Shown piece by piece: positions 31,855-34,278 of a DNA stretch of 64,000 bases. The DNA is from Pelagomonas calceolata (Eukaryota), in NCBI GenBank assembly GCA_918797485.1, contig CAKKNE010000006.1, positions 682,001-746,000 on the forward strand, given 5' to 3'. The notes beneath the pieces are model-generated. The model was not told the DNA's origin. It searched no databases and saw nothing but the letters and a program-made list of their open reading frames with translations. Both the position numbers and the translations under genes were made by a program. Positions within the stretch are counted from its first letter, which is position 1, and each line of letters opens with the position of its first letter.

Positions 31855-33051
31855 TTAGTTTTTTATCCCCCAGAGCTTGAGCAACCTGTACGACGCAGAC
31901 ACGACGCGCCGTCCGTCCGGAAACACGGCAACGCTCCAGACCTACGACGAAGCCAGATCATCACAAACGTACAGTGGACGCCGCAACGCACGGAGTCCGA
32001 GTGCCCTTCCAGCGTCGCCACGCATTTACCGGTCGCCACATCCCACACCTTGAGCGTGTTGTCCCACGACCCAGAAACGACGCGCCGCCCGTCCGGAAAG
32101 ACGGCAACGCTCGAGACCTACGACGAAGCCAGATCATCACAAAAGTACAGCGGACGCCGCAACGCACGTCGCTCGAGTGCCCTTTCAGCGTCGCCACGCA
32201 TTCGCCGGTCGCCACGTCCCAGACCTTGAGCGTCTTGTCGTTCGAGCCAGACACGACGCGCCGCCCGTCCGGAAACACCGCGACGCCCTTGACCTACGAC
32301 GAAGATAGATCATCACAAAAGTACAGTGGACACCGCAACGCACGTAATTCGAGTGCCCTCTCAGCGTCGCTAGGCATTTGCCGGTCGCGATGTCCCAGAC
32401 CTTGAGAGTGTTGTCGCCCGACCCGGACACGACGCGCCGCCCGTCCGGAAACACAGCAACCTACAAGGAAGACATATCACAGAACGTACACAACGCGGAC
32501 GCAGCGTGCCGCACAGGGGAGGAACCTTCCAGCGTCGCCACGCACTGGCCGGTCGCCATGTCCCACACCTTGAGAGTCTTGTCGCTCGACGCAGAAACGA
32601 CGCGCCGCCCGTCCGGAAACACGGCAACACAATTGACCTACGACGAAGCCAGATCATCACAAACGTACAGTGGACGCCGCAACGCACGTAACTCGAATGC
32701 CCTTCCAGCGTCGCCACGCACTTGCCGGTCGCCACGTCCCACACCTTGAGCGTGTTGTCGTCCGACGCAGAAACGATGCGCCGCCCGTCCGGAGATATGG
32801 CAACACAATTGACCTACAACGAACACACATCAACACAAAAGTACAGCGGACGCCGCAACGCACGTCTTTCGAGTGCCCTTCCAGCGTCGCCACGCACTTG
32901 CCGGTCGCCACGTCCCAGACTTTGAGCACACCTGGCTTTAAAACTTCCCCATCACAAGACACGACGCGCCGCCCGTCCGGAAACACGGCAACGCTCGTGA
33001 CCTACGACGAAGCCAGATCATCACAAAAGTACAGTGGACGCCGCAACGCAC
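31855..33051 (-). repeat. Tandem array of ~176-bp exon+intron cassettes
   Basis: Six near-identical 50-bp introns (31942-31991, 32118-32167, 32294-32343, 32638-32687, 32814-32863, 33002-33051; consensus GTGCGTTGCGGCGTCCACTGTACTTTTGTGATGATCTGGCTTCGTCGTAG) plus one divergent copy (32461-32514). Confidence 0.95.
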
Positions 33052-34278
33052 GCTCTCCGAGTGCCAGAGCATCTTCAGCACGGCGAGCTTCGATGGGTCT
33101 ATCGCTTCGACTGAAAGCTGTCGCTGCCTCGCCTGCTTGAGCTGCTCCTGGAGTTCGGCCTTGCGGGCTTCGAGCTCCGCGTGGAGCCTATCGCCCTCGT
33201 CGAAGTCGTCGTTGTCGAAGGCAGCCTCTTCCTCGGCCGTCAGCTTTATGATGCGGGCCTGCAATGCGTTGATCTTGAGGATGCCGCCCCTGTGCGCAGC
33301 TTTGATCTCCTCGATGCGCCCCTTGATCTCTTTGCACTTCTTCCCGTCGCGATTCCCCTTGGCCTCAGTGAGCTCCTTCTCGAGTCCAGCGATCAATAAC
33401 TCCTCCAAATCGGCGGCGAGGACGATGAGCAGCTCGTCGGCGGTCCGGTAGCGGTGGTAGGCGTCGTGGCCGCCCAGCTGTTTTCGCAGCAGGAGCATTT
33501 TCTCGTGAACGAGCTGGACCTCGCAAACGTGTTGGTGAGGGTCGTCGGAGCGAACGATGTTCAGCAAGCAGTCGGCCCACCCGCCGCTGGTCCGCCCGCC
33601 CGCGAAGCGGTTCTTTACGCGTACAATCTTCCAGCCATGATTGGCCTCAGAAAAGAACGTCAGAGCGGCGCCGAGCTCGCTCATGCTCCCGCACGTGACC
33701 ATGCCTCTGACGACGTCGACGATGCCGTCGACTTCGCCGCGCCGTTCCGCTTCCGCGCGGAGCATCGACTTCTCGATCGCGCGCGACATCTTTTTCAGCG
33801 GTGCCACGGAGATGCTCGCACCGGCGAGTGCGCCGCGCGCCGCGTCGAGGAGGCTCGCGAACGGCGCGCGAGCGCCCACCGCCCCAGTCTCGTAGAGCTG
33901 CTCGAGCCGCTGCGTCGTCTGGCGCGGCTTCTGCCGCGGGGCGTTGCTCGCGCAGCGGTCCGCCTGGGTGTTGAATTCGGCGAAGCCGGGCTCCTTTGCC
34001 AACAGATTTTCGTAGACGGACTGGTAGACCCGGCTGAAGTTGGTCAGGAGCTCCGCTCGCAATTTCTTCAGAGCGTCGCGATGCGCCGGCGCCTGGTCTA
34101 TCAGCATCGAATAAACGCCGCGGCTGTGCTCCAGCGCGCCGCGCACGGCCGTGCGCTCCTGCGCTGTCCAGGCGCCTGAAGACTCCAGCTTCCGCTGGAG
34201 CGCCGTCAGGCTCTCGACGCACGAGGCCATGTCATCGCGGTCGACGGGGAGCACCAGCAGAGATGCGCCCGCCCCCAT
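31855..34278 (-). CDS. RelA/SpoT-like nucleotidyltransferase - coiled coil/UVR-like - 7xWD40 protein, 8 exons
   Basis: Exon 1 (34278-33052): [46 protein letters not shown]. Exons 33001-32864, 32813-32688, 32637-32515, 32460-32344, 32293-32168, 32117-31992 and 31941-31855 each add one WD40 repeat in frame, ending ...LKLWGIKN*. Confidence 0.85.

What the first reader, a model, noticed from the sequence alone, without database searches (positions are those of the whole stretch)
31855..34278. Candidate eukaryotic immune/sensor protein: myristoylated RelA/SpoT-like nucleotide synthetase fused to a variable WD40 propeller
Seen: exon 1 has, in order, [10 protein letters not shown] / IVDVVRG / [16 protein letters not shown] / CEVQL / GHDAY, then a coiled coil, then seven WD40 repeats that are invisible in the ORF track because of seven introns. 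Known: that motif order parallels RelA/SpoT synthetase motifs (RxKxxxSxxxK, DxxGxR, GY, ExQxRT, HxxY), and MGxxxS is the N-myristoylation consensus. No hydrolase, TGS or ACT domain and no plastid leader are present, so it is not the canonical plastid RSH. Trp replaces the Tyr of the GY motif, which may change the acceptor nucleotide. Inference: a membrane-anchored receptor-enzyme that makes an alarmone-like messenger or toxic pyrophosphorylated product on ligand binding. This is NLR-like logic without a NACHT/NB-ARC core.
Basis: partly seen in the sequence, partly recalled or inferred. Interest (0 to 1): 0.9.

Follow-up and report, generated by a model that had tools for sequence, protein, structure and literature searches.

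The report
Algal alarmone enzyme with swappable sensor
A marine picoalga expresses a spliced gene that joins a bacterial-toxin-like RelA/SpoT enzyme domain to a fast-varying WD40 propeller; it belongs to a large family that carries many different partner domains and likely works as a ligand-triggered immune or signalling enzyme.

Summary
The gene (minus strand, 34278-31855) has 8 exons and encodes 689 aa. All 7 introns appear as joints in stranded polyA reads. An unnamed NCBI model from Pelagomonas calceolata matches the splice over 636 of 636 residues. Residues about 120-288 have the RelA/SpoT synthetase fold: pLDDT 93.7, Z 12.1 to a small alarmone synthetase. Putative catalytic residues are 96-100% conserved in 154 relatives. 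A profile finds 539 clusters at E<=1e-30. Relatives carry WD40, ankyrin, LRR, TPR, HEAT, FIST, TIR or kinase domains, and the closest ones switch partner at residue ~288. WD40 variation concentrates at the hypervariable sites of the fungal receptor HET-E (0 of 100,000 random site sets reach it). Likely alleles differ there while the enzyme part is 98-100% identical. Best reading: an NTPase-free sensor-effector that makes an alarmone-type nucleotide. Activity, product, ligand and immune role are untested. Precedents: fungal RelA_SpoT-NACHT-WD40 NLRs and bacterial CapRel.

The parts
33052..34278 (-). Exon 1 (409 codons): N-terminal motif, helical region, synthetase domain, helical linker, first WD40 strand
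   Evidence: identical to NCBI model P0160
34261..34278 (-). MGAGAS, predicted N-myristoylation motif (Gly2, Ser6) at the first ATG
   Evidence: sequence; read ends at 34288; 12 of 16 MG-starting relatives have S/T at position 6, p=1e-8
33922..34260 (-). N-terminal helical region (residues 7-119), shared with the closest paralogues
   Evidence: model helices 15-34, 39-91, 99-112; aligned in paralogues
33415..33921 (-). RelA/SpoT-fold synthetase domain, Tas1/Apk-type motifs (residues 120-288): K162, R166, K170, D188, R191, K222, R224, G233, W234, D236, E253, Q255, H258, H271, Y274, R278
33109..33396 (-). Helical linker (residues 295-390), helical hairpins or coiled coil
   Evidence: single-sequence model, helices 280-308, 312-330, 332-354, 359-387
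33002..33051 (-). Intron 1, 50 nt, GT..AG, phase 0
   Evidence: 39/38/28/27 reads
32864..33001 (-). Exon 2, WD40 repeat with a 4-codon insertion
32814..32863 (-). Intron 2, 50 nt
   Evidence: 40/25/25/16 reads
32688..32813 (-). Exon 3, WD40 repeat, 126 nt
32638..32687 (-). Intron 3, 50 nt
   Evidence: 42/25/21/13 reads
32515..32637 (-). Exon 4, WD40 repeat with a degenerate tail, 123 nt
32461..32514 (-). Intron 4, 54 nt, diverged copy (69-74% identical to the others)
   Evidence: 42/25/38/17 reads
32344..32460 (-). Exon 5, WD40 repeat lacking its first three codons, 117 nt
32294..32343 (-). Intron 5, 50 nt
   Evidence: 42/29/37/19 reads
32168..32293 (-). Exon 6, WD40 repeat, 126 nt
32118..32167 (-). 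Intron 6, 50 nt
   Evidence: 43/46/47/26 reads
31992..32117 (-). Exon 7, WD40 repeat, 126 nt
31942..31991 (-). Intron 7, 50 nt
   Evidence: 34/26/22/17 reads
31855..31941 (-). Exon 8, last three strands of the seventh WD40 repeat and the stop codon
   Evidence: not covered by the partial NCBI model

Best explanation
This spliced, transcribed gene encodes a RelA/SpoT-fold domain with Tas1/Apk-type motifs joined to seven variable WD40 repeats, and it likely works as a membrane-tethered non-self sensor whose enzyme is switched on when the propeller binds a ligand. Shown: gene structure, transcription, predicted fold, family-wide conservation of the putative active site, modular exchange of the partner domain, variation focused on HET-E-type sites. 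Inferred step 1: Gly2 is myristoylated and holds the protein on a cytosolic membrane. Inferred step 2: the enzyme is held off at rest, because the gene is transcribed in culture and bacterial relatives are toxic when free. Inferred step 3: a foreign or modified-self protein binds the variable face of the propeller and, through the helical linker, releases or clusters the enzyme. Inferred step 4: it transfers pyrophosphate from ATP to a purine nucleotide 3'-OH; (p)ppApp is my first guess (about 0.4), ahead of (p)ppGpp (about 0.25). The product would drain ATP and halt growth, or act as a messenger. No NACHT or NB-ARC switch is used.
For: Fold: model pLDDT 93.7, pTM 0.89; every Foldseek row listed is an RSH synthetase; Z 12.1, rmsd 3.1 over 148 residues to 6fgk and Z 11.7, rmsd 2.4 to 5ded, with the first non-RSH row at Z 7.8. 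Profile-to-PDB top hit Tas1, E 2e-4 and 8.5e-5; a broader profile ranks YwaC 1.6e-7 then Tas1 5.3e-6. Conservation among 154 relatives: K162 99%, R166 98%, K170 100%, D188 99%, R191 100%, E253 99%, Q255 100%, H271 97%, Y274 96%, R278 99%. 46 of 145 relatives carry another Pfam family, mostly binding repeats: DUF285 10, LRR 9, ankyrin 5, WD40 3, HEAT 2, MORN 2, TPR 1, plus TIR, ART, kinase, peptidoglycan-binding, FIST. Seven close paralogues (70-82% identical) align to residues 1-287/288 and no further. WD40-fused members do not form one clade (AU p=1e-4, 37 rows). At the seven HET-E sites named in PMC12222747, pN 0.42 and pS 0.21, against pN 0.05 elsewhere; 0 of 100,000 random 7-codon sets reach it. 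Likely alleles: residues 1-290 are 98-100% identical in 10 of 11 compared (the eleventh, P0002, is a paralogue at 86%), residues 381-409 are 55-75% identical. Syntenic locus L001 is 99.4% identical over codons 1-290 but has a different repeat after intron 1. Precedents read as passages: CapRel (PMC9712102), fungal RelA_SpoT NLRs (PMC4986451), one-exon-one-repeat candidate receptors in Ectocarpus (PMC3341825).
Against: No activity, ligand, localisation or infection data. The query has no Pfam RelA_SpoT hit at E<=1; only 18 of 145 relatives hit it at E<=1e-3 and 4 pass the curated cut-off. By structure, housekeeping SAS and CapRel score above Tas1 (Z 9.4), so the Tas1 link rests on sequence motifs. 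Syn3 (GWxDxxxN) fits neither the ppGpp nor the Apk signature of PMC12226406, and Apk1 homologues include ppGpp makers (PMC12691689). The HET-E sites are also the surface positions any WD40 tolerates; pN/pS near 2 rests on 5-7 non-independent repeats. 99 of 145 relatives show no second Pfam family (many are fragments). FIST, EF-hand, kinase and multi-membrane partners fit ordinary signalling as well. The neighbours are housekeeping genes and no hydrolase or antitoxin was seen among 24 window ORFs scanned.
Confidence: 0.5

Rival explanations
1. The enzyme is an ordinary second-messenger synthetase, used like a receptor cyclase: many sensor domains feed one non-toxic nucleotide signal for nutrients, calcium or surface contact, and the WD40 array is a scaffold or regulator.
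For: Partners include FIST, EF-hand, kinases, PH/Ras and ephrin-receptor-like ectodomains; 15 of 152 relatives have a predicted membrane segment outside the domain; Tyr-type relatives are multi-membrane proteins; the gene is transcribed in culture runs and sits among housekeeping genes.
Against: Allele-level turnover of the repeats beside a nearly invariant enzyme, variation at HET-E sites and repeated partner swaps between near-sister enzymes are typical of conflict systems.
Confidence: 0.25
2. It is a sensor-effector as above, but the acceptor is RNA or another macromolecule: it would pyrophosphorylate tRNA 3' ends and stop translation, as CapRel and FaRel2 do.
For: CapRel structures rank 3rd and 4th, Z 11.5 and 11.2; Trp at the G-loop and a unique Syn3 point to an altered acceptor site; the G-loop aromatic residue coordinates the acceptor base (PMC11782079).
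Against: FaRel2 has the canonical Syn1 Arg/Ser and Syn2 spacing (R64, K66, S70, K74; D90, R95), which this family lacks; its Syn1, Syn2 and C-terminal motifs follow Tas1. Z differences under 1 are ties.
Confidence: 0.15
3. The domain binds nucleotides without catalysis, or acts on bacteria or the plastid rather than in the alga's own cytosol, and the WD40 variation is neutral drift of a tandem array.
For: No curated-model hit for the query; the window's copy has degenerate repeat junctions in exons 1, 4 and 5; PMC4986451 suggests that fungal RelA_SpoT effectors might manipulate bacteria.
Against: Near-invariant acidic and basic active-site residues across relatives that are mostly 21-40% identical; the N-terminus is MGAGAS with no leader upstream in the reads; amino-acid change is confined to a few codons.
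Confidence: 0.08

Closest known systems
Tas1/Apk1 and Apk2 (p)ppApp synthetase toxins and their exported homologues (EAS)
   Same: RSH fold (Z 9.4 to 6ox6, 9.9 to 8vx3); PxKxxxRxxxK, DxxR and GHxxYxxxR align with Tas1; Arg three residues after the Syn2 Asp as in Apk2 (PMC12226406).
   Different: Eukaryotic, intron-containing, no export domain, no linked immunity gene seen; Trp G-loop and GWxDxxxN Syn3; fused to sensor-type repeats.
CapRel fused toxin-antitoxin phage sensor (PMC9712102)
   Same: N-terminal RSH-fold enzyme plus a variable C-terminal domain; the proposed logic is the same; Z 11.5.
   Different: Sensor is a WD40 propeller, or another repeat, not a pseudo-zinc finger; motifs are Apk-type; autoinhibition is untested here.
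Fungal NLRs: RelA_SpoT-NACHT-WD40 (PMC4986451) and HNWD het-d/het-e (PMC12222747)
   Same: RelA_SpoT domain at the N-terminus, WD40 repeats of high internal identity, variation at repeat positions 11, 12, 14, 30, 32 and 39.
   Different: No NACHT or NB-ARC domain; one exon per repeat with near-identical introns; 7 repeats rather than about 11. Whether the fungal domain is the same subfamily was not tested.
Plastid long RSH (RSH1-4) of algae and the unplaced eukaryotic divRel synthetases (PMC6881373, PMC3153485)
   Same: Synthetase fold in an alga; divRel shows that synthetase-only RSHs were noted before in fungi, amoebae and two diatoms.
   Different: No HD, TGS, ACT or plastid leader; non-canonical motifs; the passages read describe no large repeat-fused family.
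Ectocarpus ROCO-LRR and NB-ARC-TPR candidate receptors (PMC3341825)
   Same: Stramenopile genes in which each repeat is one exon and recent duplicates differ mainly in the repeat domain.
   Different: Those use a GTPase or NB-ARC core; here the only recognisable catalytic domain is the RSH-fold enzyme.

Membership tests
RSH synthetase superfamily | Rel/SAS nucleotidyltransferase-type fold | tested here: met
   Z 12.1, rmsd 3.1, 148 aligned to 6fgk; top 27 rows are RSH; Foldseek E 6e-5
RSH synthetase superfamily | Basic Syn1, acidic Syn2 Asp, G-loop aromatic, Syn4 ExQ, Syn5 His | tested here: met
   K162/R166/K170, D188, G233-W234, E253/Q255, H271 at 97-100% in 154 relatives; Syn1-Syn3 align to YwaC and RelP
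RSH synthetase superfamily | Pfam PF04607 above the curated cut-off | tested here: not met
   No hit for the query at E<=1; 18 of 145 relatives at E<=1e-3, 4 above cut-off
RSH synthetase superfamily | Pyrophosphate transfer from ATP to a 3'-OH acceptor | not testable with these tools
   Needs biochemistry
Long or plastid RSH (Rel/SpoT, RSH1-4) | HD hydrolase, TGS and ACT domains; plastid leader | tested here: not met
   No such Pfam hit; the protein starts MGAGAS and reads end 10 nt upstream
Housekeeping (p)ppGpp synthetases | Syn2 DxxGxR, Syn3 SxH, Syn4 ExQ-IR | tested here: not met
   [20 protein letters not shown][YW]xSxH in 0 of 154 and HxWxxxEH in 0 of 154; signatures from PMC12226406
Apk/Tas1 (p)ppApp synthetases | Syn1 PxKxxxRxxxK and Syn2 DxxR | tested here: met
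   Aligned to Tas1; KxxxRxx[EQ]K in 145 of 154 by pattern
Apk/Tas1 (p)ppApp synthetases | Syn3 GxN | tested here: not met
   The family has W-x-D-x-x-x-N (signature)
Apk/Tas1 (p)ppApp synthetases | Syn4 ExQ-YH | tested here: inconclusive
   A His is conserved (94%) but one position further along, ExQxxH
Apk/Tas1 (p)ppApp synthetases | Export domain and linked immunity gene | tested here: not met
   Neighbours are a UCH/MYND gene and a RING gene
Fungal-type NLR (RelA_SpoT-NACHT-WD40, HNWD) | Central NACHT or NB-ARC domain | tested here: not met
   About 110 helical residues lie between enzyme and propeller; no NACHT/NB-ARC among rows shown for 145 relatives, best 5 families only for 8 of them
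Fungal-type NLR (RelA_SpoT-NACHT-WD40, HNWD) | WD40 repeats of high internal identity with hypervariable sites 10, 11, 12, 14, 30, 32, 39 | tested here: met
   Full-length exons 76-84% identical; 6 of the 7 sites vary, the four most variable codons are all among them, site 10 is invariant (register)
Fungal-type NLR (RelA_SpoT-NACHT-WD40, HNWD) | Same RelA_SpoT subfamily as the fungal effector domain | not tested
CapRel-like fused toxin-sensor | C-terminal domain autoinhibits the enzyme and binds the trigger | not testable with these tools

The most novel reading that the evidence does not exclude
Microbial eukaryotes across several supergroups have turned a bacterial/phage Apk-type toxin domain into a large family of NTPase-free immune receptors that make (p)ppApp or a new pyrophosphorylated purine in the cytosol, a further nucleotide-based immune output beside cGAS/CD-NTase and TIR enzymes, with specificity set by exon-level shuffling of sensor repeats.
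Probability: 0.3. Interest if true: 0.95.

Novelty: new variant of a known kind. Interest (0 to 1): 0.78.

Why it matters
In eukaryotes, alarmone synthesis is studied almost only in plastids. This family points to RSH-fold enzymes outside the plastid, in hundreds of sequence clusters that curated models mostly miss. How picophytoplankton such as pelagophytes detect viruses and bacteria is largely open. The family gives a direct test: a small enzyme domain with obvious catalytic residues, natural alleles that differ almost only in the sensor, and paralogues with swapped sensors. If the product is (p)ppApp or a new nucleotide, it adds a signalling molecule to eukaryotic biology.

Tried and rejected
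No genome is held for this window, so paralogues in the same genome could not be counted; tblastn of exon 1 and blastn of the repeat unit found no second copy in the 64 kb window. Single-sequence phmmer against PDB gave only chance hits. PADLOC: 1 of 21 members hit PDC-S33 at E 0.0019; PHROGs and NCBIfam: 0 of 21. Pattern scans of viral contigs and of bacterial/archaeal genomes found no relative; they used one 7-8 residue pattern, so this is weak. tblastn against phages: none for the query, 2 records of one phage at E 2e-4 for P0049. The single-sequence model of P0160 folds the propeller but not the enzyme (pLDDT<50 over 76-286, pTM 0.42), so it says nothing on domain packing. A second read-laying on contigs of other samples did not complete, so splicing rests on one sample plus the NCBI model. 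A post-hoc set of six variable codons gave pN/pS of 0.89; I dropped it for the published HET-E set. The near-identical introns are not taken as mobile introner elements: they sit at the same position in every repeat and occur nowhere else in the window. Earlier-findings look-ups returned nothing. Nine answered paper searches (on the enzyme family or organism; 59 and 87 on repeat receptors make ten in all) listed no paper describing this family; subscription journals are mostly not in the library and I read no supplements, where such proteins could be listed.
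Full report
Gene structure. The gene lies on the minus strand from ATG 34278 to stop 31855. Exon 1 (34278-33052) has 409 codons. Seven GT..AG phase-0 introns follow (six of 50 nt, one of 54 nt), each at the same place in a WD40 repeat. 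The spliced frame is 689 aa with one terminal stop. The six 50-nt introns are 86-100% identical to each other; the full-length WD40 exons are 76-84% identical. Stranded polyA reads from four runs of at most one sample show all seven joints. The exon 1 to exon 2 joint has 39, 38, 28 and 27 reads with 68-75 nt on the shorter side. Read ends pile at 34288 in one run and depth upstream of 34308 is below 0.3, so MGAGAS is the likely N-terminus. An NCBI model named 'unnamed protein product, partial [Pelagomonas calceolata]' (P0160) has 0 mismatches over its 636 residues. Weak points: depth in bin 33788-33891 is 0.4-3.3; reads over the repeats include paralogue reads; read starts pile at 31869-31871, just before the stop, so the 3' end is unresolved.

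The enzyme domain. Pfam and single-sequence PDB searches miss it. A profile from 8 sequences hits Tas1 (E 2e-4) and the small alarmone synthetase YwaC (E 5e-3) in PDB; a 113-sequence profile gives Tas1 8.5e-5; a 21-sequence profile that includes Tyr-type and phage-like relatives gives YwaC 1.6e-7, Tas1 5.3e-6 and RelP 7.9e-5. The model of residues 1-306 has pLDDT 93.7 and pTM 0.89. All Foldseek rows listed are RSH synthetases. Structural realignment gives Z 12.1 (6fgk, rmsd 3.1, 148 residues), 11.7 (5ded, rmsd 2.4), 11.5 (CapRel) and 9.4 (Tas1); the top 27 rows are RSH and the next is at 7.8. In the viral library the best matches are phage RelA/SpoT-family and long polyvalent-type proteins. 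The Atlas returned unnamed clusters whose commonest known phylum is diatoms, and a cluster with RelA_SpoT on 34% of members.

Which kind of RSH. The family has PxKxxxRxxxK, DxxR, GWxDxxxN, ExQxxH and HxxYxxxR. The first, second and last align with Tas1, the last only in a weak stretch. PMC12226406 (passages) gives Apk2 signatures as Syn2 RYT, Syn3 GxN and Syn4 YH, against AVR, SxH and IR in ppGpp synthetases. This family matches Apk at Syn2, neither at Syn3, and has a His offset by one at Syn4. The guanine-recognising SxH is absent in 154 of 154. This favours an adenosine acceptor but does not settle it: the same paper could not switch specificity by swapping motifs, and Apk1 homologues include ppGpp makers (PMC12691689, passages and section 9). 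Trp234 is at the G-loop position whose Tyr coordinates the acceptor base (PMC11782079, passages). It is 99% conserved in the best 154 relatives, a set biased by the profile; membrane-type relatives and a 2908-aa phage-like protein have Tyr.

The family. The profile scores 5978 clusters at E<=1e-3, 2489 at 1e-10 and 539 at 1e-30 among 1.84 billion representatives; I saw only the best 150, and the weaker tail may include bacterial and phage proteins. Named members are few: P. calceolata, the haptophyte Chrysotila carterae and the cryptophyte Guillardia theta, the last labelled 'RelA/SpoT domain-containing protein' by UniRef. Of 145 relatives scanned, 46 carry another Pfam family: DUF285 10, LRR types 9, ankyrin 5, WD40 3, HEAT 2, MORN 2, kinase 2, ephrin-receptor-like 2, and single cases of TPR, TIR, ART, peptidoglycan-binding, FIST, SPRY, laminin G, Kelch, EF-hand and PH/Ras; 99 show none, many being fragments. 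No NACHT, NB-ARC or HD domain was listed; 2 of 152 have a P-loop pattern outside the domain. Seven close paralogues, 70-82% identical, align to residues 1-287/288 and stop there; five of them carry FIST. In a 37-row tree (chosen from 165 for having a labelled partner) near-sister enzymes carry different partners, such as ankyrin with MORN, WD40 with HEAT and DUF285 with kinase, and the six WD40 fusions are rejected as one clade (AU p=1e-4). Loci L019 and L034 show highly repetitive WD40 arrays before and after the domain. Of 16 more distant relatives that start MG, 12 have Ser or Thr at position 6 (p=1e-8), so the myristoylation-type start recurs; myristoylation itself is inferred from the recalled consensus.

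The sensor. The WD40 region folds as a propeller (rmsd 2.0-2.3 to 7-bladed structures). PMC12222747 (passages) lists positions 10, 11, 12, 14, 30, 32 and 39 as the high dN/dS sites of HET-E repeats and prints a repeat that fixes the register. At those seven sites the window's repeats have pN 0.42 and pS 0.21; elsewhere pN 0.05 and pS 0.24. No random set of seven codons out of 100,000 reaches that pN, and the four most variable codons are positions 30, 14, 11 and 12. Site 10 is invariant. These are 5-7 related repeats and surface positions, so this is a pattern, not a formal test of selection. Among likely alleles or very recent paralogues, residues 1-290 are 98-100% identical in 10 of 11, while residues 381-409 are 55-75% identical; the two residues at positions 11-12 of the first repeat take 8 forms in 13 sequences. 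L001 shares the upstream RING gene (98.5%) and codons 1-290 (99.4%), but after intron 1 it has a repeat like the window's exon 3. Loose read ends show other transcripts entering the same WD40 repeat from different upstream sequence.

Context. The neighbours are a UCH/MYND gene, a RING gene, IMP dehydrogenase, Nup35 and other housekeeping genes; no hydrolase or antitoxin appeared among 24 ORFs scanned.

Mechanism. I commit to a ligand-gated sensor-effector (0.5): myristoyl anchor, enzyme off at rest, activation through the variable propeller face, and an alarmone-type purine product, (p)ppApp first. All four steps are inferred. Rivals are a non-immune second-messenger enzyme (0.25), a tRNA-directed version (0.15) and a non-catalytic or outward-directed protein (0.08). 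I put the claim that the domain is an active RSH-type pyrophosphokinase at about 0.85.

Comparison and novelty. It works like CapRel (PMC9712102, passages) and like fungal RelA_SpoT-NACHT-WD40 NLRs (PMC4986451, passages; also listed in PMC9815663), but it is a member of neither: no NACHT, no pseudo-zinc finger. It is not a plastid RSH (PMC6881373, passages). Scattered eukaryotic synthetase-only RSHs were noted as divRel (PMC3153485, passages). One exon per repeat recalls Ectocarpus candidate receptors (PMC3341825, passages). PMC3482391 and PMC7824862 (passages) cover bacterial and phage systems only in what I saw. Ten searches of the open library listed no description of this repeat-fused, Trp-type eukaryotic family; subscription papers and supplements were not seen. 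Verdict: real, a new variant of a known kind, interest 0.78.

Noticed in passing
window:31855-31871: Read starts pile at 31869-31871, 12-14 nt before the stop and next to an A-run; the convergent UCH gene ends at 31832, only about 22 nt away. The true 3' end or overlapping UTRs are unresolved.
   Followed up: no
window:31942-33051: The six 50-nt introns differ by 7% on average, less than synonymous sites of the WD40 exons (about 22-24%), which suggests constraint or conversion on the introns.
   Followed up: partly
window:32870-32994 (loose read ends): Dozens of reads per run continue into unlike sequence, so the same organism expresses other genes that use this WD40 repeat with different upstream parts.
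   Followed up: no
P0193: Paralogue 82% identical over the enzyme part, with a C-terminal region that has no Pfam hit and ends in CCVVS, a possible prenylation motif (recalled), besides an MGxxxS start.
   Followed up: partly
P0189 (Guillardia theta) and P0207: Tyr-type relatives with several membrane segments; P0189 has two copies of the domain and a tandem neighbour in its cluster.
   Followed up: partly
P0190, P0191: 2908-aa proteins of phage-like appearance carry the same motif set with Tyr; a possible prokaryotic sister group.
   Followed up: partly
viral structure library, rank 14 (A0A7D3R1N1): A Fadolivirus protein named nucleotidyltransferase relA/spot matches at E 4.8e-3, so giant viruses may carry related domains.
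   Followed up: no
window:33109-33396: The linker's helix pairs resemble UvrB/UvrC-type hairpins (recalled); Pfam did not report that family.
   Followed up: no
window:40980-42347: An ankyrin-repeat ORF of 455 aa lies about 7 kb away; its other domains were not examined.
   Followed up: no
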